This document shows, in pieces, positions 3,806 to 44,255 of a DNA stretch of 64,000 nt. The notes below the pieces were generated by a model, which was not told where the DNA came from, searched no databases, and saw nothing but the letters and a program-made list of their open reading frames with translations. The stretch is from positions 8,378 to 72,377 of the forward strand of contig JASBSN010000013.1 of NCBI GenBank assembly GCA_030148915.1, in the 5' to 3' direction. The first letter of the stretch is position 1. The number at the start of each line of letters is the position of its first letter. The stretch is from Thiogranum sp. (GTDB lineage Bacteria > Pseudomonadota > Gammaproteobacteria > DSM-19610). The translations under genes were made by a program, and so were the position numbers.

Positions 3806-3813
3806 GCACACAT

Positions 3814-19378: not shown

Positions 19379-20143
19379 TCATGTGCCAAGGAACCGCTCC
19401 CGAAACGCTCGCCGGCCTTGGTCGTAAGGCGCCGGATTGGTGGCATGCGGGACCGGCGCACTTCTGTCGCCGATGAGGTAATTAATCCGATAAGTGCAGT
19501 TGCCCGATGGGTGCAGCATGCCACCGACCACCCGATCCGGCTTCAGAACACACTCCTGGATCAGACGGTCCAGCACCTTCTGGACTTGCGGCCCCAACCC
19601 GATGAATACGGCATCCCTCAGTTCTTCGACCTCCACCGCAAAGTTCTCCAGCAGGTATTGCCGCAGTAACGGGTGCTTGGTCATGTCCGGGGTGCCACGG
19701 TAATCGTTGTCCTTGACGAACACCGGATACCGCAGGAGGGATGTGGTCTGCACCAGGTGATGTGATCTGACGAATAGATCGGCCGAATCGCTCAGATCGA
19801 GCCACTGATGGAAGCCCCAATGATTGAGCTGATTGATCAGGTTGCTGCGCAGCGGCTCGCCACTGAAGGCGCCGACGCTCTTGGCGTCCCGGATCGCTTC
19901 CGCGCTGGATTTACCGGCCTGAAGCGCGCGCCGCGCTTCGTTGTTGGCGTTAACCATCTGTGTGGGGCCAGGCGTTATCCCGACCAGGACGATTCGTGCG
20001 CTCTGGTTGATGTACTCGAACGGCGCGTAGTAGATCTTCAAGTCACCGCTTGCGTCCATCAACAGTCGCGGGTCGCGCACCTCTGGAGGGTGCGCGTCAT
20101 CACATAGGACCGAAGCGTACTTCTCGATCAGACAGGTGTTCAC
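19379..20143 (-). CDS. uracil-DNA glycosylase superfamily-like protein
   Basis: IVLVGITPG (compare MUG ILFVGINPG), FIGLG strand and MLHPSG (UDG motif 2). GTG start overlaps the upstream TAG (TAGTG). Confidence 0.65.
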   Translation of the reverse strand: MNTCLIEKYASVLCDDAHPPEVRDPRLLMDASGDLKIYYAPFEYINQSARIVLVGITPGPTQMVNANNEARRALQAGKSSAEAIRDAKSVGAFSGEPLRSNLINQLNHWGFHQWLDLSDSADLFVRSHHLVQTTSLLRYPVFVKDNDYRGTPDMTKHPLLRQYLLENFAVEVEELRDAVFIGLGPQVQKVLDRLIQECVLKPDRVVGGMLHPSGNCTYRINYLIGDRSAPVPHATNPAPYDQGRRAFRERFLGT

Positions 20144-26629: not shown

Positions 26630-26717
26630 TCGTGCTCCTGGGCTTCTCAAAGACGGGCTTTATTGGTTGAAGTTGATTGCGTCCATCAGCGTCCCAATCG
26701 CTTCACATTGCTCGCAG

Positions 26718-27095
26718 TTAACGAGTCTGAACAGACTTGTTGTTCGGATGTTCGCTGTCGGAAAGCTCTTTTGCCGTCCCCAGTAATTGTTCAATGCTCT
26801 GGGGCGTCAGTCCGGCCTCTTTGATGTATCGAATCAGATTCATGGCTTCTGGATTCTCGTGGAGGTAATCAACGATCTCCGGGTCCGTGGATGAGGAAAG
26901 CCGGAAAAGGACATCGGGATCGGCGGCGAGTGTTTTTGCCAACGCCTTGATAATCTCGGGACTTGGCGGGCGTTCTTTGCCGCGCTCAATGCGGCTAAGG
27001 TAGGCCGGTGATATTCCGACCAAACCTGCAGTTTCGCGCAGGCCCAAGTCTTGGGCGGTACGCAAATCCCGAATAGTCTCGCCAAACGCCTTCAT
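26718..27095 (-). CDS. XRE-family helix-turn-helix regulator
   Basis: FGETIRDLR...LRETA..VGISPAYLSRIERG..PPS pattern. Confidence 0.9.
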   Translation of the reverse strand: MKAFGETIRDLRTAQDLGLRETAGLVGISPAYLSRIERGKERPPSPEIIKALAKTLAADPDVLFRLSSSTDPEIVDYLHENPEAMNLIRYIKEAGLTPQSIEQLLGTAKELSDSEHPNNKSVQTR

Positions 27096-27245: not shown

Positions 27246-27452
27246 ATGCAAAATGAAGAAATGCTGAAGATCAAGGACGTTGCTGCGTTGCTAAAGGTCG
27301 GTGAAAAGACCATCTATTCCATGGCGCAATCCGGCGAGCTACCGGCATTCAAGGTCCGCGGGCAGTGGCGATTTTCCCGGAAGGATATTGATGACTGGAT
27401 CGTGAAGCAGAAGAACACAACCCACGATCTAGATAGGAACCATAGCCAATGA
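27246..27452 (+). CDS. excisionase-like HTH protein (MAD1-like)
   Basis: MLKIKDVAALLKV...IY.MAQSGELPAFKVRGQWRF (HTH_17); first gene of the MADS-type operon. Confidence 0.85.
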   Translation: MQNEEMLKIKDVAALLKVGEKTIYSMAQSGELPAFKVRGQWRFSRKDIDDWIVKQKNTTHDLDRNHSQ

Positions 27453-27479
27453 ATTCAACCTTCTGTAGCGGAGTTTGAT

Positions 27480-29549
27480 ATGGGAAAGAATAAGAAACAG
27501 GCGGAGAACACAATCGCTGCAGGATATACGCTCGACTATGTCTCCGGAGAACCAATTAAGGAAACCAAGAAAGAGCTGGTACGCCAGCGGGTCGCTCGTG
27601 CCCTGATCCATGAGTACGGCTTTTCACCGGAAGACATGGAGCTGGATTTCTCAATCGGTGGGCGCAAGAAGGTGGACGTCGCCATTTTTCATCATGGCGA
27701 GGAGCACACGATTGAAAACATAAGTCGCGCTGCGATCTGCCGGCCTGAGCCCAATGTCGGTAAGAACGCCGTGCGTATACGGGACTTTGATCAGGCTGCG
27801 AAGGACCTGGATGAACTTGAGAGCATCATGCAAGAGGTCGAGGCCATTAAGTACGGGTTATGGACAAACGGGCTCGAGTTTTTTTTCCTCGAGAAGGAAA
27901 AAAAGCGTTTCGAAACCAAGTGCAACCCGATAGGTGATTGGCCGATGGCAGAAGAGTCTGTCGGCACCAAAGAGGTCTTTTCCGATGCGCACACCCGTGT
28001 CGCTGACAACGAGATGCTCAAAATTACCTTTCGCCGCTGCCATAACTTCATCCATGGCAATGAGGGCATGCCGAAGGATGCAGCTTTCTGGCAGTTCCTG
28101 TATCTCATCTTCTGCAAAATGCATGACGAGAATCTACGCGCTAAACAGCGCAAAGCCTGGAAGCGCCGCTTTTGGGCTGGCCCTAAGGAACAGTTCGATC
28201 CTAAGGGGCGTAAGGAGATACGTGGGCGGATTGAGGAGCTTTTTACCGAAGTCAAAAAACAATACAAGAATATCTTTCGCGGTAACGAGGAAATAACCCT
28301 GTCCGACCGGGCGCTAGCTTTTATTGTATCCGAGCTGGCCAAATACGATTTCACCCGCACTGATGTGGATGCCAAGGGCGTCGCCTATCAGGAACTGGTG
28401 GGCGTCAATCTACGTGGCGACCGAGGCCAATACTTTACACCACGGGGAGTGGTGAAGCTTGTCGTGGAAATGCTCGATCCCAAAGAGAATGAAACACTGC
28501 TGGACCCTGCATGTGGCACCGGCGGTTTCCTGGTTGCCACGCTTGCTCATATGTTGAAGAAATTCCGGGATGAGCAGGATACATCGCCTGGCGATGAGAC
28601 CAGTACCGAATTCCTGAATGTTCATGAACGCTTGAAAGAGTACGCGGCCGCTAACGTCTTCGGGGCCGACTTCGATCCGTTCTTGATCCGCGCCGCACAG
28701 ATGAACATGGTGCTGGCGGGTGATGGCCGTGGTCACATCTACAACATCAACTCGCTTGAATTCCCCCTGGGGCACTTGGCAGACCTGACAAATGCCAAAA
28801 AAGAAATTCCACTCGGCTCGGTCGATATCATCGCCACCAATCCTCCATTTGGTTCGGACATCCCGATTACCGACAAGCACATCCTAGAGCAGTATGAACT
28901 GGCCCATAACTGGGAATCGGACGGGGAAGGTGGTTTCCGCAACACTGGCGTTTCTAAAGGCAGCGTCGCACCCGAGATTCTCTTCATCGAGCGCTGTATC
29001 AAATGGTTGAAACCAGGCGCTGGACGCATGGGTATCGTCTTGCCTGATGGTGTTTTGGGGAACCCGGCAGCGGAGTACATCCGTTGGTGGATTATGCGCG
29101 AAACGCAGGTGCTTGCCTCCGTCGATCTGCCAGTGGAGGCTTTTATCGCCGAAGCCAATGTCAACATCCTCACCAGCCTGCTGTTTCTGCGTCGCAAGAG
29201 TGACCAAGAAAAACGCGCGGAGGTATTAGGCGGCATTGAGGAGTACCCAGTCTTCATGGCGGTGGCGGACAAGGTTGGTTTCGACCGTCGTGGCAACAAG
29301 CTATACAAGCGCACGCCCGATGGTGAAGAAATCGTCGAACCTCGTCAGCATGAAGAAAAGTTCAGAATTAAGGGCGAGTGGGTTAAGCGGGTTCTTACAC
29401 GTAAAGAGAAGGTTGAAGATAACGACTTGCCTGTCATCGCTGAAAAGTACCGAGAATTTCTTGCAGAACTTGATGGATTGACACCTGCCAAGAAGAAATC
29501 ACCGGGTAGGGCGAAAGGGTCGGCCAACAAGAAGGTGGCGGTGCGATGA
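27480..29549 (+). CDS. N6-adenine DNA methyltransferase with N-terminal HsdR_N-like domain (MAD2-like, copy 1)
   Basis: RGQYFTP, LDPACGTGGFL (motif I), NPPF (motif IV, 28839-28850) and GIVLPDGVL. Confidence 0.9.
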   Translation: MGKNKKQAENTIAAGYTLDYVSGEPIKETKKELVRQRVARALIHEYGFSPEDMELDFSIGGRKKVDVAIFHHGEEHTIENISRAAICRPEPNVGKNAVRIRDFDQAAKDLDELESIMQEVEAIKYGLWTNGLEFFFLEKEKKRFETKCNPIGDWPMAEESVGTKEVFSDAHTRVADNEMLKITFRRCHNFIHGNEGMPKDAAFWQFLYLIFCKMHDENLRAKQRKAWKRRFWAGPKEQFDPKGRKEIRGRIEELFTEVKKQYKNIFRGNEEITLSDRALAFIVSELAKYDFTRTDVDAKGVAYQELVGVNLRGDRGQYFTPRGVVKLVVEMLDPKENETLLDPACGTGGFLVATLAHMLKKFRDEQDTSPGDETSTEFLNVHERLKEYAAANVFGADFDPFLIRAAQMNMVLAGDGRGHIYNINSLEFPLGHLADLTNAKKEIPLGSVDIIATNPPFGSDIPITDKHILEQYELAHNWESDGEGGFRNTGVSKGSVAPEILFIERCIKWLKPGAGRMGIVLPDGVLGNPAAEYIRWWIMRETQVLASVDLPVEAFIAEANVNILTSLLFLRRKSDQEKRAEVLGGIEEYPVFMAVADKVGFDRRGNKLYKRTPDGEEIVEPRQHEEKFRIKGEWVKRVLTRKEKVEDNDLPVIAEKYREFLAELDGLTPAKKKSPGRAKGSANKKVAVR

Positions 29550-31567
29550 ACGATCGAATTGATGACGTCAATGATGATCAGCAGGATGCTGCCGAAGAGA
29601 GCGGCTCCGATAATTTTTTCATCGACATTCTGACCGGCAACAAGGAGAGCGCCTCGGCCAAGAAGCTGCTGGTGCAGAAGGTTCTGCGTCAACTCATCGA
29701 GAGCTACGGCTTTGACCGGGACGATCTGGAGGTCAACTATAACCCCCAGATCCCCGGCCAGGGGCGCAAGCGCATTGACATCGCGATTTTCCGTCCCGAT
29801 GCCGAGCACAACAACGACAACCTGCAGCGGATTATCGTCTGCAAGAATCAGAAGAAGCGCGACAAGCTTCGTTCCATTACCGAGGCCGACGCCGACCTGC
29901 GTGAGCTCAAGGAGCTGCTGGAGCTGATCCCCGGCGCGACGCTGGGCATGTGGACAAACGGCCAGGAAGAGTTCCTGTTCCAGGTCGAGCGCACCCGCTT
30001 CGAGGTCCGGCCCAAGCCGCTGGGTGTGTGGCCGGTTCCTGGTGAACGTACCACCGATCTCGACCGCACGGGCGGTGTCATTCAGGTTAGCGCCGAAGCG
30101 GAGGATCTGGAAGACGCCCTGCTGCGCTGCCGTCAGTATCTGAACCGCAACCTGGGACTCGATCACAAGGATTCCTTCAAGCAGTTGGCCGTGCTGATGC
30201 TGGCCAAGATCCACGATGAGACCCTGCCCACCGGCGAGCGCAAATTCTGGATCAGGGGCGACGAGCCATTCACCGAGGTCGGCCAACAGGCCATTGCCCA
30301 GCGCATCAACGAATCCATTACCGCTGCCAAGGCCTGGCAGCCGAACCTGCTGACCCGTGGTTGGGATCTGACGCTGGAACCTCTCGAGACCGCACGCGTG
30401 GTGATGGAGCTGGCCCGTTACTCTCTGAGTGAAACCCAACCTCGTTTCCGTACTGGGGCCTTCCGTGCGGTCTCCCGCAGCGTGATGGACGGCCGTGAGG
30501 GCCGTTATCCCACACCGCTCAACGTGGCCGAAATGGCAGTGGATATGCTCGACCCACAACCCGGCGAACGCATCATGGACTGCTCCAGCGGCACCGGCAC
30601 CTTCCTGGCCATGACCGCCACACACATCTTCAAGAAAAAACTGGCGGCCATGGGCACCACGCCTGAAGAGCCCACCAACGAACAGATCCGCCAGGCGCAA
30701 AACGAAACCGCTGCTTGGGCGGCCAGCAACGCCTTGGGTTGCGACATCGATCCCTTCCTGGCCGTCGCCAGCCGGATGAATCTGCTGTTCACCACTGGCA
30801 ACCCGGGCCGCGTGTTCCGCATCGATGCCCGCACGTTCCCGGACGGTGATCTGGATGGCATCGAGGCGGCACGCCTGGCCATGCCACTGGGCAGCATGGA
30901 TGTGGTTCTGCTCAACCCCTGGTTCTCCACCCAAGAGACGGTGAGCGACACCTCCATTCTGGAGCGCTACGACCTGGGCAACAACTGGGAGCGCGACGAG
31001 GAAGGCGGATTCCGCAACACCGGCAATCTGAACGCCGGCGGCGTGCCGCCCGAGGTGCTGTTTATCGAGCGCGCCCTGCAATGGGTGAAGCCCGGCACCG
31101 GCCGCGTGGGCATCCTGTTGCCCGATGGCTTGCTGGGCAATCCCGGCGATGAGTACGTGCGCTGGTGGATTCTGCGCCACTGCGAGGTCTTGGCCTCGGT
31201 TGACCTGCCGGTGGAGCCGTTCAAGGTCACGGTCAAGGAATATGGCCTGACGCCCGCCTTGCCCAGTCTCCTGGTACTGCGCCGCCGCAGCCAGGAGGAG
31301 CTCATCAATACCGAGCACCCGGAATACAAGGTCTTCATGGCCGTGGTGGACCGGGCCGGTGTCGACGCCCGGGGAAATCTCCTGTTCCAGCGAGCCCCCG
31401 ATGGAGAGGAACTGGTTTTCGATGAGGAGGTGATCGAGCGGGTTCGAGAAGGTGGTGAAGTGGAAATCCGTCGGACTACACGCCGCAACCGCCGCGTTCA
31501 TGACGAGCTGCCGCTGGTGGCAGCGAAATACAAGGAATTTCGCGCAACCGGCGAGGTGACGTTATGA
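29546..31567 (+). CDS. second HsdM-like methyltransferase paralog with altered catalytic motif (MAD2-like, copy 2)
   Basis: GRYPTP, MDCSSGTGTFL, NPWF (30914-30925) and GILLPDGLLGNP; shares GGFRNTG and PE.LFIER blocks with copy 1. Confidence 0.85.
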   Translation: MNDRIDDVNDDQQDAAEESGSDNFFIDILTGNKESASAKKLLVQKVLRQLIESYGFDRDDLEVNYNPQIPGQGRKRIDIAIFRPDAEHNNDNLQRIIVCKNQKKRDKLRSITEADADLRELKELLELIPGATLGMWTNGQEEFLFQVERTRFEVRPKPLGVWPVPGERTTDLDRTGGVIQVSAEAEDLEDALLRCRQYLNRNLGLDHKDSFKQLAVLMLAKIHDETLPTGERKFWIRGDEPFTEVGQQAIAQRINESITAAKAWQPNLLTRGWDLTLEPLETARVVMELARYSLSETQPRFRTGAFRAVSRSVMDGREGRYPTPLNVAEMAVDMLDPQPGERIMDCSSGTGTFLAMTATHIFKKKLAAMGTTPEEPTNEQIRQAQNETAAWAASNALGCDIDPFLAVASRMNLLFTTGNPGRVFRIDARTFPDGDLDGIEAARLAMPLGSMDVVLLNPWFSTQETVSDTSILERYDLGNNWERDEEGGFRNTGNLNAGGVPPEVLFIERALQWVKPGTGRVGILLPDGLLGNPGDEYVRWWILRHCEVLASVDLPVEPFKVTVKEYGLTPALPSLLVLRRRSQEELINTEHPEYKVFMAVVDRAGVDARGNLLFQRAPDGEELVFDEEVIERVREGGEVEIRRTTRRNRRVHDELPLVAAKYKEFRATGEVTL

Positions 31568-32979
31568 GCAGAAAGTTTCAGTGTAAGGTTGTGCCAAGTA
31601 TCTGGATTGAACACAACGGTCGCCGCCTTGACTGCGGGCCTTATGTGTCAGGAGCGATAGAAGCAAAAGAGCTTCTGAGTCAGATGAACACAACTCCGCT
31701 GACGGATTTGACCACTGGGCATAAGGGCGGGATCTACAACGGTTCACCCTTTGTCCGGAACTATGTGGAAGATCCAGATCATGGCGTTCCATTTTTGACC
31801 ACATCCTCTTTGCTTCAGGCTGACCTGACCAATCTTTCACTGCTGAGCAAGCGAGATGCCCGCTCCAGGCAGCTTAGTTTCCTCGAAATAAAGCCGGGTA
31901 TGACTCTCATTACCTGCTCTGGAAGCATCGGCAGAATGGCCTATGCCAGGTCAGACATGAAGGGAGTTTGGTCAAATCAGGACATCATGAAGGTTGTCCC
32001 AAATCCAGACTTAATTAAATCTGGATATCTCTATGCCTACCTATGCAGCAAGTTCGGAGTCCCTCTTATTGCCTCCGGAACATATGGCGCAATTATTCCG
32101 CATATTGAGCCGCAGCATATCGCAGATCTCCCTGTCCCGCGCCTTGGCATCGTGGAAGATCAGGCTCATGAGCTAATTCAACAAGCCGCAAACAAACGCG
32201 TTGATGCCAGCAGAATCATTGCGAGAGCTATCGCGCAATTAGAAAGTGCCGCGGGCTTACAAGCGCTACCTTGCAGTAAGTCAGATGGCATTCCACTCAG
32301 CTTGAGTGTCACACCTTCTTCGAACTTGATGAAGCGGATGGACGGCGCCTTTCATAGTTTGTTTCATCGTGATGCTGTAAGGGCTCTCGAAACCGCATCG
32401 GTTCCGACGACCACTGTAGCGAATAAGGCGGTATCCATAGTCGAGCCAAAACGATTCAAGAGAATCCAGATTGATGATCCAGAGTTTGGTATTCCAATGT
32501 TCGGAACATCGGCATTGATGTGGGCGGACCCACAGCCCAGCTATCTCATACCAAAAAACATGAGTGACATTGATGAGCTGTTGGTAGATCAGAAGACAGT
32601 GCTCGTTCCTCGATCTGGGCAGATATCTGGCATTATCGGCACTGCCGTCCTTCCTTATGGCGCCATAGTTGGATCTGCTGTCTCAGAAGATGCAATTAGA
32701 ATTAATTGCTCGAATGAGATTATTGCCGGTTTTCTTTTCATTGTACTTAGGTCCGAGTATGGGCGCCGCCAACTCAAAGCTCGCGCATACGGCTCCTCCA
32801 TCCCGCATCTAGATGTTAACCAGATCGGGGAAACTCTGGTGCCTGACCTAGATGATGAGGTCATCGAGGAGATTGGTGCAATGGGCCTACAGAGCGCCAA
32901 ACTTCGACATGAGGCCATTGAACACGAAAGCAAAGCCCGCCGCCTCGTAGAACGTGCAATCGAAGAGGGCGGCCGCTAA
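31564..32979 (+). CDS. HsdS-like specificity subunit (MAD5-like)
   Basis: Two TRD-like repeats with LITCSGSIG/LVPRSG.I.G and YGAIIPHIE...LPVP/YGSSIPHLD...VP conserved blocks. Confidence 0.88.
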   Translation: MSRKFQCKVVPSIWIEHNGRRLDCGPYVSGAIEAKELLSQMNTTPLTDLTTGHKGGIYNGSPFVRNYVEDPDHGVPFLTTSSLLQADLTNLSLLSKRDARSRQLSFLEIKPGMTLITCSGSIGRMAYARSDMKGVWSNQDIMKVVPNPDLIKSGYLYAYLCSKFGVPLIASGTYGAIIPHIEPQHIADLPVPRLGIVEDQAHELIQQAANKRVDASRIIARAIAQLESAAGLQALPCSKSDGIPLSLSVTPSSNLMKRMDGAFHSLFHRDAVRALETASVPTTTVANKAVSIVEPKRFKRIQIDDPEFGIPMFGTSALMWADPQPSYLIPKNMSDIDELLVDQKTVLVPRSGQISGIIGTAVLPYGAIVGSAVSEDAIRINCSNEIIAGFLFIVLRSEYGRRQLKARAYGSSIPHLDVNQIGETLVPDLDDEVIEEIGAMGLQSAKLRHEAIEHESKARRLVERAIEEGGR

Positions 32980-35900
32980 TGGCAAAAGTCATACCCATCG
33001 GGCAACCCGCGAACGAATCTGAGCGCCAGGCCATCGGCTTCCTTCGGGACCATCTTCCCGAGGGGTGGCTGATCTTCCACAACTTCGAGATGCGCCAAGG
33101 GCAGGAGGTGTTCGAAATCGACATCGCCATCCTCGCGCCTCATGCAGTGTATCTGGTGGATGTCAAAGGGACGCGGGGCAACATCGATGTGTATGGTTCT
33201 AAGTGGTATCCCGAGGGGCGGCAGCCGTTCTTCTCGCCGTTGGCCAAGCTGCGCAGCCATGCCAAGACGATGGCCACCATCATCCGCGAAAGCAACACCG
33301 GCCTGATCGAGCTGCGCAAGGCCCATGTGCATGCCGCCGTGCTGCTCACCGCCGATGATGCCGCCGTGTTGGACCAGGCGGGCATCGACAGTCCGGACGT
33401 GACCGACTTCAAGCACTGCCTGAAATACTTCCGCGACGCGAGCCGCATTCCAGACAGCCGGCTGGATAACATAACCCGCTTCAAGTCCCAGATCGCCAAG
33501 GCGATCACCGGCAACGCTAGACCTAAGAGCGCGGCGCTGGTGTTCCGCGACTGGCAGGTGGAAGAGAAGTTGGGCGGCACCGACCGCTACACCGAATACC
33601 GCGCCAAGCACAACCTGTTGGGTAAGAGTGGCGGCATGGCCCGCCTGCGGGTCTATCAGGCCGACCCTTACCAGGACGAGGCGGCCCGCAAGGAAGAGTT
33701 CAAGAAGATCAGCAACGCCTATCGCGCCGTGGCACACATGCCGACTCACGCCAACGTGCTGGCGGTGAAGGATCTGTTCGTCTCCGATGACGAAGATAAG
33801 GTGGTGCTGGTCACCGAGGATCTGCCCGGCCAGGCCCTGCGTCTGCACATCAATAAGGCCTCAATGGCGCTGACATTTGACCAGAAACTCCAGGTGATGC
33901 GCGACGTGCTGTCGGCCCTGGACCACGCGCACCGGCATGAGGTGATTCACCGCAACCTCACCCCGGATGCCATCCTGGTGACCAAGGGCGGCCAAGCACG
34001 GGTGACCGGTTTCGATTTCGCCCGGGTGGGCAAGAACCGCACCTCCACCATCGCCGATCAGGTGGTGGATGATCTGGAAGTCGCCTATCAGGCTCCGGAG
34101 TGCTTCAAGGACCCGACCCAGGCCAGCATTGCCTCCGACCTCTATGCCGCCGGGCTGATTTTTTATGAGCTGCTGACTGGTGAGCTGCCCTTTGAAAGCG
34201 TCGACCAGATGATGGAGGCCGACGGTAGATTCCCGATGAAGCCCTCGGAGCACAAGCCGGACCTGCCCAAAGGGATCGATGAGTGGCTGCAGAAGTTCTG
34301 CGAGTTTGACCCCGAGGACCGTCATACCAGCGCTGCCATCGCCCGCAAAGTCCTGGATGATCTGATTCTGCCTGAGGCCAAGAGCGACTCGGCCCCAGAT
34401 GCGAGCGGCCCCGCCGTGGTTGTGCCGCAGCTCCCGGATGACCTGATGAGCCTGCCACAGGATTTCATTCTGGCCGATCGCTTCCGTATTCAGAAGAAGC
34501 TCGGCAGCGGCGGCTTTGGGGTCGCCTACAAGGTATTCGATTCACTTGGCGATGTGGTGCGGGTCATCAAGTTGGTGACCAGGGACCGCCGCAGCGTGTA
34601 CGAACGGCTGCGCCGCGAATACAAGACCCTGACCAATCTGCCCGACCATCCGCATGTGGTGAAGGTGATCTGGGCGGATCGCATGGCCGACGCCAAGCAG
34701 ACACCGTACATCGTTTTTGAATACGTGGAAGGTCTGGACGTCTCCGATCTGATCGACGCCGAGGCGCTGTCGCTGGATGATGCCGTGCGCATCGTGCGTG
34801 AGGCTGCCGATGGGCTGGCCCATCTTCACAAGCACGGCGTTTACCATCAGGACGTCAAGCCCTCCAATCTGCTGTGGACCGATAAAGGCGTCCGCATCAT
34901 CGATTTCAACGTCGCGGTCTCCGAAAACGACGAGGTTCGAGGCGGTGGCGGTACGCGCCGCTACCTGCCGCCGGATTACGATTGCTCCTCCGAGCCGGAT
35001 GCTTCAGATCGGATGGACCGAGATCTCTATGCCCTGGGCATCTCCTTCTACGAGTGCCTGACCGGCAAGTATCCTTTCGACGACCCCACACCGCCGATCA
35101 AGACTCAGCCCAAGGACCCTAAGCAGTTCAAGGGCTGCGCCGACCTCAGCTCTTCGCTGATCAATGTGCTGGTAAAGATGATCGCGCCGGAGCGCGAGAA
35201 CCGCTTCGCATCGGCGGAAGAGTTCTTGATCGCCCTAGCAGAGGTCAAACGCCTGCGCTCGGTGCTGACGACCGGCGAGATTGGTGCCGGACCCAAGGTG
35301 GTATCCAAGCTGGGCTTCGAGCCTATCAAGCCAAACACCAACCCCTTTGTCACCCATCTTCTGACTCTCTATAGCCAGAGTCAGGTGTCCAACGCGGGTA
35401 CCCGTGGCCTCGACGAAATTGGCAAGGCTACCTACGTACCGACCTATCTGGACGAGAAGCTCAAGCCCGCACTGCTCAAGGGAGAGTTCCGCCTGGTCAT
35501 CATCAGCGGTAACGCCGGAGATGGTAAGACGGCCTTCATTCAGCAGTTCGAGGCATTTGCCGAGAGCAAGGGCGCACAGATACGGCGCGGTGCGAATGGA
35601 GCCGTTTTCCAGCTCAAGGGACACGCCTACCAGAGCAACTACGACGGCAGCCAGGATGAAGGCGACGAGCGCAATGATGCCGTGCTGCAGAAATTCTTTG
35701 CCCCCTTCGCGGGCAAGGACGCTTCCGGATGGCCCGAGAATCAGACCCGCCTGATCGCTATCAACGAGGGTCGTCTGGTCGATTTCTTCCTGGAGCATGA
35801 AGAAGAGTTCGCGGTGCTCGCCAAGCAGATCCAGCACGGCTTGGCCGGAGTCGCTCCGGAAGGCGGTGTCGCGGTCATCAACCTCAACCTGCGGTCGGTG

Positions 35901-37130: not shown

Positions 37131-38802
37131 AGGACGCGACAAGGAATTCAGAATCCCAAAAGTTTCTTATCTCGATTTCAAGCATATCGAGATGGATCGT
37201 GTTCTGACAATGTTGTTTCCGCGTCTGAAATATGACGGTTACGGAAGCCGCCGGCCGCCCCGAGGAGGGGATCTTTCAGTTGATGAGTTTCTGGAGGACT
37301 TTCTGGAACATCCTGAATGGTTCGCCGGTTTCGACAAGCATCCGGACGTTGCTCGCGCCTGGATCGAAACTGACTTGATGGATATGGTGAATCGCGGCAA
37401 AAGTAACCAAGCTCTTGCTGCTCCACGTCCTCTTCACGGCAACACCTATAAGTTTCGTAATGCGAAGCACACCCGTGACTATGGCGCGGCCGAGCAGATT
37501 TATTGGATGCTTTTCTATGCCCGAAAAGGCAAGGGACAAGCGGCGCGTGACGCCTTGAAGCGGTTCTTCTTCCCGGGGATCGACCTGGTGACGGATCGCT
37601 ACGACCCCAACGCATCCGTCGATGTGGAAACGCAGGCCATCCTGCGTCTGGATCACCAAGTCAGCCAAGACATGAAGGACTCCAAAGAACCTTCACGTTT
37701 CCAACCGCTGTGCATCGGCCAGGCCGACATCATGGCCGACGACATTCTGCGGCTTCTGGCCTATGAGCCCTATATTCCGCGCTCCGTGCTGGTCGATTAC
37801 CTCAAGACCCTGATGGCCTTCCACCTAGCGCTCTACCACCTCAAGCTACTGCAGATGCTGCCCAAGCTGGTGAAGCAGCGCGCCGGCAACGATCTCTGCA
37901 CCACGAAGGAATGTCCGATTAATCCAGGCCTCGACAATGCGCTGGAAGGCTGTCCATACCGGGTGGCGCTGATCGTGGATATGGGCGACGTCAACAATCC
38001 GCATATGGCCGAGCTGGCGCGCAAGTCAACGGACCGACTCTATCGCCAGATTCCAGCCTTCGTGCAGGCCAATTTCATCGTTAAGAAGCTCGATGAGATG
38101 GCGGAATATTTGAGCAAAAAGACGGGCAAGCTTGCCACGCCAGGGAGCGGTGTGTTCAGCGTCGGCGATCTGGTTTACCTGTTGAAGGCTGAGCACGACG
38201 CCGAACGCCAAGCCTACTTCAAGTTTCGCCTGGCCAGCTTGATAGAGGAGTCGACCTCGGGGAATGAGGACGTCGATCCGGAGATCCGGGACGTCACCGC
38301 CATGGGGCTCGGCGAGTTTGAATCCTTTATCGAAATCTTGATGGCGTATCGTGGCAAGTATCACCGCCAGTACATCACGGAATGCCTGGATTCGCTTCTA
38401 CTGAAGAACAAGGAGAACGGCCTTCTCGCCCAACCTCGAACCAAGGGAAGTCCCCGGCGGTTTGTGCTGGGGAGCAAGCTACTGGAGGTGCTGCTTCAGG
38501 TGGCCGTGCTCACTCAGGATAGTGGGCGCTTCGTGACCCGCGAGGTCCGCATCGAGGAGTTGCTAGCATTCCTTGGAAACCGCTACGGCATTCATATTGA
38601 CCGGTTACCGGAAGGAGTCCAGGCCAATGGCAGCATTCTGGACAGACGCGCCTTGCGCCTCAACGTGGAAGCCTTCAAGCGTCGCCTGCGCGAAATCGGG
38701 TTCTACGAAGACCTGTCGGATGCTTACGTGACCCAGAAGGTTTCTCCCCGCTATGCAATTGAGAGAAATCACGGAACAGATAAGAACAAGAGGCACCCAT
38801 GA
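37120..38802 (+). CDS. MAD7-like protein (positionally DptG-like)
   Basis: 560 aa, coupled between the MAD6- and MAD8-like genes. C-terminal LREIGFYEDLSDAYVTQ resembles DptG-type termini. Confidence 0.7.
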   Translation: MSIKGRDKEFRIPKVSYLDFKHIEMDRVLTMLFPRLKYDGYGSRRPPRGGDLSVDEFLEDFLEHPEWFAGFDKHPDVARAWIETDLMDMVNRGKSNQALAAPRPLHGNTYKFRNAKHTRDYGAAEQIYWMLFYARKGKGQAARDALKRFFFPGIDLVTDRYDPNASVDVETQAILRLDHQVSQDMKDSKEPSRFQPLCIGQADIMADDILRLLAYEPYIPRSVLVDYLKTLMAFHLALYHLKLLQMLPKLVKQRAGNDLCTTKECPINPGLDNALEGCPYRVALIVDMGDVNNPHMAELARKSTDRLYRQIPAFVQANFIVKKLDEMAEYLSKKTGKLATPGSGVFSVGDLVYLLKAEHDAERQAYFKFRLASLIEESTSGNEDVDPEIRDVTAMGLGEFESFIEILMAYRGKYHRQYITECLDSLLLKNKENGLLAQPRTKGSPRRFVLGSKLLEVLLQVAVLTQDSGRFVTREVRIEELLAFLGNRYGIHIDRLPEGVQANGSILDRRALRLNVEAFKRRLREIGFYEDLSDAYVTQKVSPRYAIERNHGTDKNKRHP

Positions 38803-41800
38803 GTGACGCGTTCACCAAGCTTTCCCAGGACACATTGAACGCGGCGGTTGCTGGTCTGCTGTGCCCGCGTATCGAAGCGATTCTGGGTGACCGAGGCCCA
38901 GGCCATTGCATGCGGGTTACCGATCTCGATGACGACGTAATGGAGTCGGTCTGCAAGGAACTGCGCCGAACCCGGATCGACGGGAACATTTTTATCCTCG
39001 GCAGCCACGACCAGGAGGGCCAACCATACCGGGTGACCTCCACCAAGCTGGTGGAGTTACGCAACCCTGACGCCAACGGCGAGCTGCGTCAGCCTTTGCT
39101 GGTCTTCATACCGACCTCGCTCCGCACCAGCGCCGAGGATTCTTTTGGTGTGGCGACTTTCGAGGAGCTGACCTTCACCATGATCTACGAGGATCTTATC
39201 AGTTCACTGCTTGACCGGCTGCCGTCAACGCTGGTCGGCTATGTGCGCGATCTCTTGGGCATCCTCACGGAGGAGGGGTGGTTTTTTGCCGACGACATTT
39301 CACGCGTGCGGTACCTTCTTACGGCGCTCGAAAACGGAATTGATGGAGAAACCCTCGGGGCCAGTCTGTATGAATTGACTTTGATTCCGGACTTCAGGCT
39401 TTTTGCCGATCCCGGGATGGTCAATGGCAAGATTCGCCGGAACCTTGGTAGCGTCCGCAGCCTGATGGCTTCTCACAAGTCAGTTCGCGGCCGCATCGCG
39501 GATCTGGGACTCAGCGACAAAGCCCTGGAGTCACGCCTGTTCAGCTATTTTGAGAAATACGATGTCCAGGAGCCGGAATCGTGGACGCCTCCCATCGCGA
39601 CCGACAAGAGTTGGTGGAGTATATCGTTCGACAAGTGGACGTTCCAGCAAGAGCTTTCTCTGGATAAGGTTCTGTTGACGGTATTAGAAACGGATCTTCC
39701 GGTAGTGCAGGAAGATGAAACCGATGATCAGTTATCTGAGCTGATTGGGCAACAGGTACTGATTCCCAATGATCGTCGGAAAATGAACGTGGTCTTTGAA
39801 GTCAAGCCGCACCCGAGCAAGGTCAGCGGTCTAGACCACTTTACGGTACAGATTATCTCGCAAAACGATGGTCCAGTCGGGAAATCCAAGAAAGTTAAGG
39901 CCTGGACACCGACCCGCTTCCAATGCACGACTAACCTGGCCAAGCTCAACAAGATCGAATTCGAAGAGGGATGGCATTTCATCCGCGTCCTGCCTTGGAC
40001 TGGCGATGGCGATCCGATCCCGCTGGAAGCGGATTCTAGTTCCGAGGGCGCTAAACGCTCCTATGAGAGTGAGCCTTTCTACGTCCTGCCCGGTGGCAGC
40101 ATCGAGGAAGAACCGCCGCAACGAGCCATACCCATTGAACAGAGTCTGGAGCATGCGCGTTTCCGGCTGCAATTGACTGCGCTGGGAGATGAGCGCGATC
40201 CGGAGGAGATTGCCATCAGCGGTGTCGTCTGGGCTGAGGGCAGTCGGTCAAAGAGGGCCGCCCGTCAGGAAACCTTACTGGCGAAATTCGGACGTGAAGG
40301 CGCTGTTCAGATTCCGCTCTCGCGTATGCTCAAAACCATAGAGCAGCGTATTTTGGCAGAGCCCAAACATCCGTCGGGCTGGCGAATGCAGATCAATCTC
40401 GATACCGCCGAGCCGCCCTCCGAGGTTGGACTTACACTGCCAGCTTCTGCCGCGATGGCATCCTTTCTGGCCGCTCGAGAAGAATTCTTCGCAGCAGTGC
40501 GTAAAGACACTGCCGAGCTAATCATGCAAGGTCTTTCGTTCCGCGACTCGGAAAAGGAGTGCCTTGCGTATGCCGAGGCTTACCTCGACTTGGTAAGGAA
40601 TCTTGTCCGTCAGGCTGAGACAACTTCTGGGGCCGAGCGCCAGCATCACCTGCAAGCCCTCCGAAACGTTTTGGCCGTTGATTCCATTCATGTCATTTTG
40701 ACCGATTTCCGTGGAAGACACCGGGAAGCAGTTTTGGTTTCCCCAACCCATCCGCTCCGCTCTTTATGGCTGAGCAGTTGGGTTACTTTGGGCAAGGACT
40801 GGATTGAAACAATCAAGGCCGGCGGAAAGGATCACATTCCTCATGTCCGCTCTGCGCTGCTGGATGGTCTCGTGCCGTCAGCCTATCCCGTGGGTGTGCC
40901 CGTCGAGGATGGCCGCATCTTTACACCGGTCGACAACTTCAATGCGTTCTGGGCGCTCTATGCCCCAACAACCGAGGAAAATTCACGCGGTTTGATGGCG
41001 GAAATATGTTCGGCTTTGGGTTTGGCTGAGCCTTCCACCGCAGGAACGGATATTTCCGGGAGGGTCATGGCAGACAAGATCGAGCGCTATCTCTCCCAAC
41101 ATCCGTATGTGCGGGAGCTATCGCTGAATATCTTCAATCCAGGTGCCGGTTCGGTGATTGCGGATGCTCTGCTATCGCTCCAGCAGAAGCGTGAGCATGC
41201 CGATTTGCGCTACGATATCCGACTCTTTACCTCCGACCCTGACTCGCCGGTTTTGGGTGAGGCGCTAGAATCGATGGTCCGTCCCGGATCAACCGTGAAC
41301 GAGGCCGCTGATGCGTTTGCGACCTCTACGGGCAGTCATCTGTTCTCCAAGCTCAATTTGGCCAAGCACACGCTGAGCGAATTTCACGCAAATGCGAAGG
41401 AATTCCCTGCACACATTAGCGTTCTCCTGGACGTATTTCCCGCCGAGGAGCTCTCGGTAGCTGAAAAACCGATGGGGGTAGCCCCATTGCACGGCCTGAT
41501 ACAAGATTTTGATACCGAATTTGTTGACGACGATTCTGGTACTTACTGGAATAAGCGGCCGGTTGTTGGGCGCTCTCTTGGTGCGGATAACCACGCGGCA
41601 TGCTTCGATTTACTGTCATCCCTGAGCCGACACCTCTGTTTTGCGACCTCGGCGGTCGCAGCCTCGGGTGCCAGTTTTAAAGCCGTGCCCGTCGTGACCC
41701 TTGGCCTCGATGTGGCTCAACGAGAACTGATCTACGAAGTCCACCAGATCAGCGACTGGGTGTTCACCATCGACCGAAACATGGGGATTGAGTTCTTCGA

Positions 41801-44255
41801 CCATGGCGGGCGGAAGAACAGACCGGACTATCTGATTGACTATGTGCCGGGAGCCAGTGCTCAGGCGACACATAATTTGATCATCTCCTCGCGCTCGACT
41901 GATGAGTTGGAGGCGATGCTGAAGCCGGTGCTACGTGAGTATGGGTTGTCCGCTGACGGCGAGCAATCGGTTCAAATCCTGGCAAACCTCCGATCACTTT
42001 CCGGCCAGCTCGCCCTAAAGCTTATTTCTGCACGCACACAACAGGCGGAAGCACTTGGCCTGGCTTTGGCGCGTCTCTATCTCGAATATCAGGGTGCATT
42101 GAGCAACCAGGTTATTGTGCCGTTGGATGCGCACTCTGACCTTTATCATTCGGTAGGTGAATATGATTATCTCCTGGATGAGATAAGTCTCAAACGAACA
42201 GATCTAGCTTTGTTTGACCTTGATTTAAGTTCCCGAACGATTACCTGCAATTTGGTAGAAGTTAAATGCTACGCGAGCGTTGGCGGCTTCTCGGCTTACA
42301 ATCAGCTTAAGGAAAGTGTTTCACTGCAAATTAATCAGAGCGAGCGTATTCTCCAGCGCCACTTCGATCCGTCACTGAAAACTCCGGATCGACCAGATAG
42401 ATTGTTGAAGAGCCGTGAGTTGGCGCAAATACTTCGTTTTTATCTGGAGCGCTCCCTACGTTACGGGATATTTGATGCCACCGCCGCGCAGGAAGCGCGA
42501 GGCTTACTCGAATCCATTGAGCAGGGCTACTCGCTTCAGTTCAGACGTTGCGCCCTGATCTTCGACTTCGACAAGACCGGAACCGAAGCACCGGACAACG
42601 AAGTGGGCATTGAATTCCATCGCATCGGCAAGGATCTCATTCACGCCTTGCTGGACAACTGCCGCGAACCTGTTTCGACTCAAGTTGACGAAGAACCGAC
42701 TACGCACCTTCTCAGCGAGCAGTTCATACCGAATGTGCCGAAACTCCAGGCCGCGGCCTTTATCGCGCCCAAGAGAGCGCGATCGACGTCCTGGACGTTG
42801 GATGAGCTCTGGGTCGATAAGCCGGAAGCACCGATCACACCGCCAATACCTCCGGCAGCAGCCGAAGCACCTGCGTCTGCTCAAGAAGCGGTAGAGCAGG
42901 CGGAATCTGTCGAGAAAACACCTCCGACCTCCATTGCTCCTGACGAAGAAAAGGAGGACGAACAGACTGCCGTGGCTGCCGTGCCGGGAGCGCCTCCTCA
43001 AGCTGGGCCTGAAGCGCCAGAGCACCCGGTAACTGAGTCTGCGCCACAAGCAGGGGTCAGCTATGACATCATGCTTGGCGTCAATGGTAACTCGCCCCAG
43101 TACGGATTACTCGGAGAGGTCTCCGGCAGAAAGGTAGCACTGGATCTCAACCACACCCACACGATAAGTCTCTTTGGGGTTCAAGGCGGCGGCAAGAGTT
43201 ACACCCTTGGAACAGTGATCGAGATGGCCTCCACGCCGCTTCAGCATATCAATGTGCTGCCAAGCCCGCTCGCCACGGTCATTTTCCATTACAGCCCGAC
43301 ACAGGATTATGCGCCAGAGTTTACTTCGATGATTAATGCGAACTCGGTGGATGAGGAGATCGGGATTCTTCGTGAGCGTTACAAAGCCGACCCGGAAGCT
43401 CTGAAGGATGTGCTGATCCTTACTCCTACGAATAAGGTGGATGACCGCCGGGCCGAGTACCCCGACATCGAGGTGAAGCCCATTGCGTTCTCCGCTTCTG
43501 AGCTCAAAGCGGCTCATTGGAAATTCCTGATGGGAGCGATTGGTAGTCAAAGCATGTATATGCGGCAGATCAATCTAATCATGCGAGGACTCCGTGATAA
43601 CCTGACGTTGGATGCGCTCCGAACAGGCATTGACAACTCCGGGCTGTCCGATCACCTGAAAGAATTGGCGCAGACGCGTCTATTGTTTGCCAGCGAGTAC
43701 ATCGATGATAACCAGCGCCTTCAAGACCTGATCCGTCCTGGCCGCTTGATCATCGTGGACCTGCGCGACGAATACATTGAAAAAGATGAAGCACTTGGCC
43801 TTTTCGTGGTGATGCTGCAAATATTCTCTGAGGCCACCTACATGGGGAGCTCCTTCAACAAGCTGGTTGTATTCGACGAAGCTCATAAATACATCGAGAG
43901 CGATGATTTGGTCTCTGGCCTGGTCGAAGTGGTTAGAGAGATGCGACACAAAGGGACAAGTATCATGGTCGCGTCCCAGGACCCTCCATCGGTGCCCGTG
44001 TCACTAATTGAGTTGTCGTCACAGATCATTATGCACAAGTTCAATTCACCAGCCTGGCTCAAGCATATCCAGAAGGCCAATGCCGCGCTCGGCGAACTGA
44101 CCTCCGAGAAGATGAGCCATCTTGGTGCGGGCGAAGCCTATGTCTGGTCGAGCAAGGCCTCGGACGATTCTTTCACCAGAGGTGCCGTGAAGATAAAGTG
44201 CCGTCCTCGCATTACGCAACACGGTGGCGGCACCAAAACGGCTGTGGGCCGGTAA
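38799..44255 (+). CDS. large HerA/FtsK-like ATPase (MAD8-like; DptH-like)
   Basis: C-terminal GVQGGGKSYT Walker A, VVFDEAH Walker B and ASQDP; a Pro/Ala/Glu-rich linker precedes the ATPase. Confidence 0.82.
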   Translation: MSDAFTKLSQDTLNAAVAGLLCPRIEAILGDRGPGHCMRVTDLDDDVMESVCKELRRTRIDGNIFILGSHDQEGQPYRVTSTKLVELRNPDANGELRQPLLVFIPTSLRTSAEDSFGVATFEELTFTMIYEDLISSLLDRLPSTLVGYVRDLLGILTEEGWFFADDISRVRYLLTALENGIDGETLGASLYELTLIPDFRLFADPGMVNGKIRRNLGSVRSLMASHKSVRGRIADLGLSDKALESRLFSYFEKYDVQEPESWTPPIATDKSWWSISFDKWTFQQELSLDKVLLTVLETDLPVVQEDETDDQLSELIGQQVLIPNDRRKMNVVFEVKPHPSKVSGLDHFTVQIISQNDGPVGKSKKVKAWTPTRFQCTTNLAKLNKIEFEEGWHFIRVLPWTGDGDPIPLEADSSSEGAKRSYESEPFYVLPGGSIEEEPPQRAIPIEQSLEHARFRLQLTALGDERDPEEIAISGVVWAEGSRSKRAARQETLLAKFGREGAVQIPLSRMLKTIEQRILAEPKHPSGWRMQINLDTAEPPSEVGLTLPASAAMASFLAAREEFFAAVRKDTAELIMQGLSFRDSEKECLAYAEAYLDLVRNLVRQAETTSGAERQHHLQALRNVLAVDSIHVILTDFRGRHREAVLVSPTHPLRSLWLSSWVTLGKDWIETIKAGGKDHIPHVRSALLDGLVPSAYPVGVPVEDGRIFTPVDNFNAFWALYAPTTEENSRGLMAEICSALGLAEPSTAGTDISGRVMADKIERYLSQHPYVRELSLNIFNPGAGSVIADALLSLQQKREHADLRYDIRLFTSDPDSPVLGEALESMVRPGSTVNEAADAFATSTGSHLFSKLNLAKHTLSEFHANAKEFPAHISVLLDVFPAEELSVAEKPMGVAPLHGLIQDFDTEFVDDDSGTYWNKRPVVGRSLGADNHAACFDLLSSLSRHLCFATSAVAASGASFKAVPVVTLGLDVAQRELIYEVHQISDWVFTIDRNMGIEFFDHGGRKNRPDYLIDYVPGASAQATHNLIISSRSTDELEAMLKPVLREYGLSADGEQSVQILANLRSLSGQLALKLISARTQQAEALGLALARLYLEYQGALSNQVIVPLDAHSDLYHSVGEYDYLLDEISLKRTDLALFDLDLSSRTITCNLVEVKCYASVGGFSAYNQLKESVSLQINQSERILQRHFDPSLKTPDRPDRLLKSRELAQILRFYLERSLRYGIFDATAAQEARGLLESIEQGYSLQFRRCALIFDFDKTGTEAPDNEVGIEFHRIGKDLIHALLDNCREPVSTQVDEEPTTHLLSEQFIPNVPKLQAAAFIAPKRARSTSWTLDELWVDKPEAPITPPIPPAAAEAPASAQEAVEQAESVEKTPPTSIAPDEEKEDEQTAVAAVPGAPPQAGPEAPEHPVTESAPQAGVSYDIMLGVNGNSPQYGLLGEVSGRKVALDLNHTHTISLFGVQGGGKSYTLGTVIEMASTPLQHINVLPSPLATVIFHYSPTQDYAPEFTSMINANSVDEEIGILRERYKADPEALKDVLILTPTNKVDDRRAEYPDIEVKPIAFSASELKAAHWKFLMGAIGSQSMYMRQINLIMRGLRDNLTLDALRTGIDNSGLSDHLKELAQTRLLFASEYIDDNQRLQDLIRPGRLIIVDLRDEYIEKDEALGLFVVMLQIFSEATYMGSSFNKLVVFDEAHKYIESDDLVSGLVEVVREMRHKGTSIMVASQDPPSVPVSLIELSSQIIMHKFNSPAWLKHIQKANAALGELTSEKMSHLGAGEAYVWSSKASDDSFTRGAVKIKCRPRITQHGGGTKTAVGR

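What the first reader, a model, noticed from the sequence alone, without database searches (positions are those of the whole stretch)
27246..44255. MADS-type system variant: duplicated methyltransferase, no MAD3/MAD4
The order HTH, MTase, MTase, HsdS, NERD-kinase-ATPase, MAD7-like, HerA-like ATPase matches the methylation-associated defence system described in Pseudomonas aeruginosa. Here the AAA ATPase/MAD4 pair as I recall it is replaced by a second MTase. The last three components resemble a DptF/G/H-type restriction module wired to methylation rather than phosphorothioation (inference).
Basis: partly seen in the sequence, partly recalled or inferred. Interest (0 to 1): 0.7.

Follow-up and report, generated by a model that had tools for sequence, protein, structure and literature searches.

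The report
Ordinary seven-gene MADS defence operon
This is an intact copy of the known anti-phage system MADS, in its two-methyltransferase layout that lacks MAD3/MAD4; that layout is already named gene by gene in public E. coli annotations and was the commonest one among the related loci I surveyed, so it is ordinary.

Summary
Window 27246-44255 (+) is one tightly packed operon: HTH, two methyltransferases, specificity subunit, NERD-kinase-ATPase, MAD7, HerA-type ATPase. All seven proteins pass NCBI's curated equivalog cut-offs for MAD1, MAD2 (twice), MAD5, MAD6, MAD7 and MAD8, and they match the PADLOC mad models. MAD3 and MAD4 are absent from the locus and from the 99%-complete genome.

RefSeq E. 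coli genomes carry the same layout, annotated mads1-mads2-mads2-mads5-mads6-mads7-mads8. In my survey of 80 related loci, 47 of 66 readable ones (window included) have the same two methyltransferases, against 9 with MAD3+MAD4. The original MADS paper already treats MAD3/4 as accessory and mentions gene duplications.

The DptFGH resemblance is real: the MAD6 C-terminus matches SspF at 2e-28, MAD7 matches SspG, and MAD8 matches SspH/DndH plus HerA. It is also already published.

Two points are less well known. The second methyltransferase is an old paralogue (38% identity) with an invariant NPWF in place of NPPF. It never co-occurs with MAD3/MAD4, which occupy the same slot in other loci. Its role is untested.

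The operon lies in a horizontally acquired defence island, next to Tiamat and SPARTA-like systems.

The parts
26718..27095 (-). Divergently transcribed XRE-family HTH regulator that travels with the MADS cassette
   Evidence: Pfam HTH_31/HTH_3. It is 72% identical to the HTH gene at the same position in E. coli L010. It is also present upstream in L009 and in several survey loci where the region is visible.
27246..27452 (+). MAD1, small HTH_17 (excisionase/MerR-like) DNA-binding protein
   Evidence: NCBIfam NF047737 89.1 bits (cut-off 80); PADLOC mad1 5e-8; Pfam HTH_17 1e-17.
27480..29549 (+). MAD2a, N6-adenine DNA methyltransferase with canonical motifs (DPACGTGGF; NPPF at nt 28839-28850) and an N-terminal HSDR_N_2 domain
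   Evidence: NCBIfam MAD2 1037.7 bits (cut-off 720); PADLOC mad2 5e-89; Pfam N6_Mtase 1e-30; motifs.
29546..31567 (+). MAD2b, paralogous methyltransferase-like subunit with DCSSGTGTF and NPWF (nt 30914-30925) in place of NPPF
   Evidence: NCBIfam MAD2 810.7 bits (cut-off 720). It is 38% identical to MAD2a over the full length. NPWF and GTGTF are invariant in 47 loci.
31564..32979 (+). MAD5, two-TRD specificity (HsdS-like) subunit; the fast-varying part of the cassette
   Evidence: NCBIfam MAD5 486 bits (cut-off 400); PADLOC mad5 2e-34. It is only 42-44% identical to L009/L010, while the large proteins MAD2a-MAD8 are 82-95% identical and the small MAD1 and XRE proteins 72-74%.
32979..37130 (+). 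MAD6: NERD nuclease (nt 33012-33344), pseudokinase (HRN; nt 33678-34349), Ser/Thr kinase (nt 34485-35210), SspF/DndF-like P-loop module (nt 35379-37130, Walker A GNAGDGKT)
   Evidence: NCBIfam MAD6 860 bits (cut-off 460); Pfam NERD and Pkinase; PADLOC mad6 2e-123 and PglW 4e-67; C-terminal 583 aa match SspF 2.4e-28 and DndF 5e-8; motifs.
37120..38802 (+). MAD7, DndG/SspG-like subunit
   Evidence: NCBIfam MAD7 674.6 bits (cut-off 410); PADLOC mad7 2e-122 and SspG 2e-7. It is the only copy in the genome.
38799..44255 (+). MAD8, DndH/SspH-like giant protein with a PD-(D/E)xK-type motif (D1140...E1154-V-K1156, nt 42213-42266) and a C-terminal HerA/FtsK ATPase (nt 43113-44255; Walker A GVQGGGKS, Walker B DEAH)
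   Evidence: NCBIfam MAD8 233 bits (cut-off 175); PADLOC mad8 1e-41, SspH 2e-6, DndH 2e-5, HerA 1e-5; PDB TdpA/HerA weak hits; the D/E/K and Walker residues are invariant in 10 diverse MAD8.

Best explanation
This is an intact, horizontally acquired copy of the methylation-associated defence system MADS in its seven-gene layout, MAD1-MAD2a-MAD2b-MAD5-MAD6-MAD7-MAD8, with a divergent XRE regulator in front. Shown here: family membership of every gene, absence of MAD3/MAD4, conservation of the layout, and intact motifs. Inferred from the P. aeruginosa type system and from type I restriction-modification (R-M) biology: MAD2a, MAD2b and MAD5 form a type I-like methyltransferase. By analogy with the known M1-M2-S enzymes it is probably a heterotrimer, since the gene order is the same. 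It marks host DNA with m6A at a bipartite site set by the two target-recognition domains (TRDs) of MAD5. MAD6, MAD7 and MAD8 form a DndFGH/SspFGH-type sensor and effector complex that acts on unmethylated incoming DNA. The candidate nucleases are the NERD domain of MAD6 and the PD-(D/E)xK-type motif of MAD8. The HerA/FtsK ATPase of MAD8 would be the motor, and the kinase and P-loop module of MAD6 would handle sensing or regulation. MAD1 and the XRE protein would control expression. The strongly divergent MAD5 gives this copy its own target sequence.
For: All seven proteins exceed the NCBIfam equivalog cut-offs and match the PADLOC mad1/2/5/6/7/8 models. The identical layout is PGAP-annotated in E. 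coli APEC E956 and present in Pseudoxanthomonas spadix. 47 of 66 readable loci carry MAD2a(NPPF)+MAD2b(NPWF), 43 of them with exactly this layout. MAD7 relatives at about 90% identity or more are named MAD7 by NCBI in Aeromonas, Burkholderia, Thiobacillus and Pseudoxanthomonas. Catalytic and Walker motifs are intact and conserved. MAD5 is 42-44% identical between loci, against 82-95% for the other large proteins MAD2a-MAD8. The published definition makes MAD6-8 mandatory and MAD1/2/5 and MAD3/4 accessory; the type system makes m6A on both strands of TCAGNNNNTCC and protects against phage. For acquisition: 0 of 36 same-genus or same-family species genomes have MAD7, G+C is 53-60% in the operon against 62-67% in the first 12 kb of the window, and there are ICE and other defence genes alongside.
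Against: No methylome or phage assay exists for this layout, so activity and mechanism are extrapolated. In P. aeruginosa SMC4386 both MAD3 and MAD4 are needed for defence, so a MAD3/4-less system cannot work in exactly the same way. MAD2b's NPWF motif is non-canonical and may not catalyse methyl transfer. HMMER searches of the PDB did not recover DndG or DndH for MAD7 or MAD8. The Dnd link therefore rests on the PADLOC profiles and on published HHpred results.
Confidence: 0.9

Rival explanations
1. This is a mechanistically distinct MADS subtype in which MAD2b takes over the role of the MAD3-MAD4 OLD-like ATPase-nuclease module. MAD2b could be a catalytically dead scaffold that yields hemimethylated sites, or an enzyme with another chemistry such as m4C. 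Restriction would then depend only on MAD6-8.
For: MAD2b and MAD3+MAD4 occupy the same slot between MAD2a and MAD5 and never co-occur in 66 readable loci. NPWF, GTGTF and GCD are invariant in 47 MAD2b, and MAD2b is at least as conserved as MAD2a, 91-94% against 89-90%. So it is under selection and is not a decaying copy. M1(NPPF)-M2(NPPY)-S type I enzymes with the same gene order exist and make m6A plus m4C.
Against: There are no functional data. NPWF matches no characterised catalytic motif. Mutual exclusivity may only reflect an exchangeable accessory slot, which also holds SoFic, SIR2-like or nothing. The annotation resources already lump both forms together as MADS.
Confidence: 0.3
2. These are two independent neighbouring systems rather than one: a type I/IIB-like orphan methyltransferase (MAD2a/2b/5) next to a stand-alone DndFGH-like restriction system (MAD6-8).
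For: Rakesh et al. argue that DndFGH is a stand-alone counter-invader system often decoupled from its modification genes. The closest solved relative of MAD2 is the type IIB enzyme RM.BsaXI. The own genome has no DndC.
Against: Gene order and tight spacing are conserved, with overlapping stop and start codons, in more than 60 loci across about a dozen phyla. In SMC4386, mad5 could be deleted only together with mad2 or mad3, and mad2 and mad6-8 are each needed for defence. That links the two halves genetically.
Confidence: 0.07
3. This is an inactive relic carried along in a decaying mobile element.
For: The island carries an IS-type integrase gene (47584-48687). Pseudogenised MADS copies exist elsewhere, for example L058 and the split MAD8 in L019.
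Against: All seven ORFs are full length relative to their homologues and have intact motifs. There are no internal stops.
Confidence: 0.03

Closest known systems
MADS of Pseudomonas aeruginosa SMC4386 (Maestri et al., bioRxiv 10.1101/2023.03.30.534895; Cell Host Microbe 2024)
   Same: MAD1, MAD2, MAD5, MAD6, MAD7 and MAD8 are orthologues by curated HMMs. The operon order is the same. It has a type I-like methyltransferase plus specificity subunit and a DndFGH-like distal module.
   Different: There is no MAD3 (ATPase) or MAD4 (Toprim/DUF4276) pair, which is required in SMC4386. A second, divergent MAD2 paralogue with NPWF sits in that slot instead. MAD5 is different, so the target site is different.
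RefSeq-annotated seven-gene MADS of E. coli (e.g. APEC E956, NZ_CP087294, mads1-mads2-mads2-mads5-mads6-mads7-mads8)
   Same: The layout is identical, including the divergent HTH gene. The large proteins MAD2a, MAD2b, MAD6, MAD7 and MAD8 are 82-91% identical, and MAD1 and the XRE protein 72%. The NPPF/NPWF pair is the same.
   Different: MAD5 is only 44% identical, so the specificity differs. The host and the flanking mobile element also differ.
DndFGH / SspFGH (DptFGH) restriction modules of phosphorothioation systems
   Same: The MAD6 C-terminus matches SspF/DndF. MAD7 matches SspG (and DndG by published HHpred). MAD8 matches SspH/DndH in size, collinear middle region and HerA/FtsK C-terminus. 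NERD-pseudokinase-kinase fusions to DndF are catalogued (PMC10853773).
   Different: It is linked to methyltransferase and specificity genes rather than to dndABCDE or sspABCD. There is no DndC in the genome. Sequence similarity is remote for MAD7 and MAD8.
Type I M1-M2-S heterotrimeric methyltransferases (Morgan et al. 2016, PMC5100572; PacII, PMC9613975)
   Same: There are two paralogous M genes followed by one two-TRD S gene. The upstream copy carries NPPF and the S-adjacent copy carries a different motif IV.
   Different: The second motif here is NPWF, not NPPY. There is no HsdR. The MAD2 proteins carry an N-terminal HSDR_N_2 domain and are closer to type IIB RM.BsaXI than to HsdM.
PglW of BREX type 2
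   Same: The N-terminal NERD, pseudokinase and kinase arrangement is shared (PADLOC PglW 4e-67 over MAD6 residues 14-751).
   Different: The C-terminal half is SspF/DndF-like, not the PglW wHTH/iSTAND module. There are no PglX, PglZ or BrxC genes.

Membership tests
MADS | MAD6, MAD7 and MAD8 present (mandatory genes of the authors' MacSyFinder model) | tested here: met
   NCBIfam equivalogs: 860 bits (cut-off 460), 675 (410) and 233 (175). PADLOC mad6 2e-123, mad7 2e-122, mad8 1e-41.
MADS | MAD2 methyltransferase and MAD5 specificity subunit in the same operon | tested here: met
   Two MAD2 hits at 1038 and 811 bits (cut-off 720) and MAD5 at 486 bits (cut-off 400). The genes are contiguous and overlapping.
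MADS | MAD1 HTH protein at the head of the operon | tested here: met
   NF047737 89.1 bits (cut-off 80).
MADS | MAD3 ATPase and MAD4 Toprim nuclease (accessory in the detection model, essential in the type strain) | tested here: not met
   NF047739 and NF047734 give no hit in the own genome. A positive control worked for MAD4. PADLOC mad4 gives no hit. PADLOC mad3 hits only generic ABC ATPases on other contigs.
MADS | m6A methylation of a bipartite site, and methylation-dependent protection from phage and plasmids | not testable with these tools
   This needs a methylome and plating or transformation assays. It is known only for SMC4386.
DndFGH/SspFGH | Three-protein module with an F-type P-loop kinase, a G subunit, and an H subunit carrying a REase motif and a HerA/FtsK ATPase | tested here: met
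   SspF 2.4e-28, nearly full length. SspG 2.4e-7, SspH 2.4e-6, DndH 1.6e-5, HerA 1e-5. The D...EVK and Walker motifs are conserved. The MAD7 and MAD8 matches are weak.
DndFGH/SspFGH | Genetic linkage to a phosphorothioation module (dndABCDE or sspABCD) | tested here: not met
   There are no such genes in the operon. The DndC model TIGR03183 gives no hit in the genome. The ssp genes were not searched genome-wide.
Type I M1-M2-S methyltransferase | Two paralogous M subunits with NPPF and NPPY motifs plus one S subunit, associated with HsdR | tested here: not met
   The gene order M-M-S and the NPPF in the first copy are met. The second copy has NPWF, not NPPY, and there is no HsdR. The heterotrimer itself was not tested.
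BREX type 2 (Pgl) | PglW together with PglX, PglZ and BrxC/D | tested here: not met
   Only the N-terminal half of MAD6 matches PglW (profile positions 16-767 of 1403). No other BREX gene is in the operon.

The most novel reading that the evidence does not exclude
The commonest MADS layout among the loci surveyed, this one, is mechanistically different from the studied P. aeruginosa type. A conserved NPWF paralogue (MAD2b) pairs with MAD2a on one specificity subunit and stands in for the MAD3-MAD4 OLD-like nuclease. It would give either hemimethylation or a second kind of base modification, and restriction would be carried by the DndFGH-like MAD6-8 module alone.
Probability: 0.3. Interest if true: 0.5.

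Novelty: already known. Interest (0 to 1): 0.2.

Why it matters
As a finding it mostly confirms existing annotation. A standard pipeline (PGAP, DefenseFinder or PADLOC) would label this locus MADS. The residual value is comparative. The experimentally studied eight-gene P. aeruginosa system was the minority layout among the relatives surveyed here. Most had a two-methyltransferase form with no OLD-like MAD3-MAD4 nuclease, and how that form restricts DNA is untested. Anyone generalising from the MAD3-MAD4 structural work should know this.

Tried and rejected
- The PADLOC mad3 model is non-specific. It hit 99 ABC-type ATPase stretches in the own genome and also matched in all 14 control genomes. 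I replaced it with the NCBIfam MAD3 and MAD4 equivalogs plus a positive control.
- MAD7 alignments of 45 and 17 sequences were too diverse for the search for related loci. An 8-sequence alignment worked.
- PDB sequence and profile searches found nothing for MAD7, for the MAD6 C-terminus or for the MAD7 profile. For MAD8 they gave only weak HerA/DUF87/TdpA hits. No solved DndG or DndH was recovered by HMMER.
- MANTIS (Gao_RL) was considered because of hemimethylation, but it is a different BREX-related system.
- The Cell Host & Microbe version of the MADS paper is not held, so I used the preprint and its supplements.
- The careful maximum-likelihood tree did not finish, so only the quick IQ-TREE tree was used. 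Its deep branching should not be over-read.
- I did not predict structures. They would not settle whether NPWF is catalytic.
Full report
**Observation**

The stretch 27246-44255 holds seven co-directional ORFs on the + strand. They are packed with 1-11 nt overlaps, or a 27-nt gap in one case.
- 27246-27452: HTH_17 protein, 68 aa.
- 27480-29549 and 29546-31567: two N6_Mtase proteins with N-terminal HSDR_N_2 domains, 689 and 673 aa.
- 31564-32979: a 471-aa protein with no Pfam hit but strong specificity-subunit hits in PADLOC.
- 32979-37130: a 1383-aa protein with NERD and two kinase domains.
- 37120-38802: a 560-aa protein.
- 38799-44255: an 1818-aa protein.

**Identity**

PADLOC matches are mad1 (5e-8), mad2 for both methyltransferases (5e-89 and 5e-49), mad5 (2e-34), mad6 (2e-123), mad7 (2e-122) and mad8 (1e-41). 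NCBIfam, the model set PGAP uses for naming, has equivalog models for every MADS protein, and all seven proteins exceed the curated cut-offs:

| Protein | Bits | Cut-off |
|---|---|---|
| MAD1 | 89 | 80 |
| MAD2a | 1038 | 720 |
| MAD2b | 811 | 720 |
| MAD5 | 486 | 400 |
| MAD6 | 860 | 460 |
| MAD7 | 675 | 410 |
| MAD8 | 233 | 175 |

MAD3 and MAD4 are truly missing.
- The specific models NF047739 and NF047734 find nothing in the 99%-complete genome.
- The MAD4 model scores above its cut-off in two genomes that carry the eight-gene form, so the search itself works.
- The PADLOC mad3 model turned out to be a generic ABC-ATPase detector and was discarded.

**Is the layout unusual? No.**

- A blastn search with the MAD7 gene found ten complete E. 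coli genomes. In APEC E956 the RefSeq annotation reads HTH(-), mads1, mads2, mads2, mads5, mads6, mads7, mads8.
- Pseudoxanthomonas spadix has the same eight genes next to ICE transfer genes.
- MAD7 proteins about 90% or more identical to this one occur in Aeromonas, Burkholderia, Thiobacillus, Pseudoxanthomonas and Terracidiphilus. NCBI names the first four MAD7; the Terracidiphilus copy is labelled a hypothetical protein.
- A scan of one genome per prokaryotic species with a MAD7 alignment found 211 relatives, and the best 80 loci were fetched. I classified them with phmmer and ORF maps.

Of 66 loci (window included) where the MAD2-to-MAD5 region is readable:

| Content between MAD2a and MAD5 | Loci |
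|---|---|
| MAD2a(NPPF)+MAD2b(NPWF), exactly as here | 43 |
| MAD2b present, with an extra inserted gene or a cut 5' end | 4 |
| Single MAD2, then MAD3 and MAD4 | 9 |
| Fic (SoFic) gene | 4 |
| SIR2-like gene | 3 |
| Single MAD2 with nothing identifiable in the slot | 2 |
| Clp-like gene plus an unknown gene (L075) | 1 |

The MAD3 and MAD4 calls were confirmed by NCBIfam at 516 bits (cut-off 420) and 257 bits (cut-off 160), and by PADLOC at 1e-41 and 6e-15. On a quick MAD7 tree the two-methyltransferase form is spread over the whole tree. The MAD3/4 form appears at seven or more separate places, mostly on long branches. The sample favours relatives of the query, so the proportions are not a census.

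The MADS authors already reported that MAD3/4 are 'not reliably detected in all systems' and made them accessory.

**The DptFGH inference**

- The C-terminal 583 residues of MAD6 match SspF nearly end to end (2.4e-28) and DndF (5e-8).
- MAD7 matches SspG (2.4e-7).
- MAD8 matches SspH (2.4e-6) and DndH (1.6e-5) at collinear positions, and HerA at its C-terminus.

This link is real but published. The MADS preprint's supplementary notes give Mad7 = DndG/DptG (HHpred 99.5%) and Mad8 = HerA, and list PglW, SspF and DndF hits for Mad6. Rakesh, Aravind and Krishnan catalogued DndF proteins with NERD, inactive-kinase and active-kinase fusions, and argued that DndFGH is often decoupled from phosphorothioation. 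The own genome has no DndC.

**Anatomy bearing on mechanism**

- MAD2a has DPACGTGGF and NPPF. MAD2b has DCSSGTGTF, a retained acidic motif II (GCD) and NPWF.
- The two are only 38% identical, so the duplication is old.
- Across 47 loci, MAD2b's NPWFST and GTGTFLA are invariant. The single MAD2 of MAD3/4-type loci is a MAD2a orthologue.
- MAD2b is at least as conserved as MAD2a, so it is under selection.
- The gene order NPPF-M, variant-M, S copies the type I M1-M2-S enzymes, which make m6A plus m4C. By analogy I infer a MAD2a-MAD2b-MAD5 heterotrimer.
- Whether NPWF is catalytic cannot be decided from sequence.
- MAD5 is 42-44% identical between loci whose other large proteins (MAD2a-MAD8) are 82-95% identical. 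That is the usual signature of specificity swapping.
- MAD6 keeps a NERD D...DVK motif, an HRN pseudokinase, an HQD/DFN kinase and a Walker A.
- MAD8 keeps D1140...E1154-V-K1156 and Walker A/B residues, invariant in ten diverse homologues, including those from MAD3/4-type loci.

Without MAD3-MAD4, shown to be an ATPase-nuclease heterotetramer required in P. aeruginosa, the nuclease activity must come from the MAD6 NERD domain and/or the MAD8 REase motif. This is inference.

**Context**

The operon lies in a defence island:
- a TraG_N conjugation gene at 17314-18972;
- Tiamat TmtA (21845-26650) with a NERD-UvrD helicase (20143-21882);
- the MADS cassette with its XRE gene (26718-27095);
- a TIR-APAZ plus short pAgo pair (44468-47390);
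- an IS-type integrase (47584-48687).

G+C is 53-60% in the operon against 62-67% in the first 12 kb of the window. None of 33 same-genus or 3 same-family species genomes has MAD7. The system was therefore acquired horizontally, as in other hosts.

**Verdict**

This is a correct reading of an ordinary, already catalogued system. The one thread worth a specialist's attention is the untested role of the NPWF paralogue, together with its mutual exclusivity with MAD3-MAD4. There is no co-occurrence in 66 loci; the hypergeometric probability is 2.5e-6 if phylogeny is ignored.

Noticed in passing
Loci L011-L090 (region between MAD2a and MAD5, about locus positions 2300-4450): The slot between MAD2a and MAD5 is exchangeable: MAD2b in 47 loci, MAD3+MAD4 in 9, a Fic/SoFic gene in 4, a SIR2-like gene in 3, a Clp-like gene plus an unknown gene in L075, and nothing in L038. 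No locus has a full MAD2b together with MAD3/4. L037 and L053 keep MAD2b fragments next to the newcomer.
   Followed up: partly
window 29546-31567 (NPWF at 30914-30925): MAD2b's motif IV is NPWF and its motif I is D-x-S-x-GTGTF. Both are invariant in 47 homologues from many phyla, while MAD2a keeps NPPF. No characterised methyltransferase with NPWF is known to me.
   Followed up: partly
window 26718-27095 (-): An XRE-family HTH gene is conserved divergently upstream of MAD1 in E. coli (72% identity), Pseudoxanthomonas and several other loci. In PADLOC it resembles CapH and R-M control proteins. It is probably the cassette's regulator, although it is not counted among mad1-8.
   Followed up: partly
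window 27480-27900 and 29546-30000 (N-termini of both MAD2 copies): Both MAD2 proteins carry an HSDR_N_2 (PD-(D/E)xK-like) N-terminal domain, and their closest solved relative is the type IIB enzyme RM.BsaXI (8w0p). I did not establish whether this domain is an active nuclease.
   Followed up: no
window 20143-26650 (-) and 44468-47390 (+): MADS is flanked by a Tiamat TmtA gene (PADLOC E-value 0, 2246 bits) with a NERD-UvrD helicase on one side, and by a TIR-APAZ plus short pAgo (SPARTA-like) pair on the other. An IS-type integrase lies at 47584-48687 and an ICE TraG_N gene at 17314-18972.
   Followed up: partly
L035 (uncultured Collinsella MAG contig) versus L010 (E. coli): The MAD7 of a 'Collinsella' metagenome bin is identical to the E. 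coli protein, and all gene lengths match. This is probably a mis-binned E. coli contig rather than transfer into Actinomycetota.
   Followed up: no
L058, L019, L060, L061: Decayed MADS copies exist. L058 is fragmented throughout, L019 and L060 have a split MAD8, and L061 has a fragmented MAD2b.
   Followed up: no
window 29484-29549: The window's MAD2a ends in a Lys-rich tail of about 22 residues (PAKKKSPGRAKGSANKKVAVR) that is absent from the E. coli and Pseudoxanthomonas orthologues.
   Followed up: no
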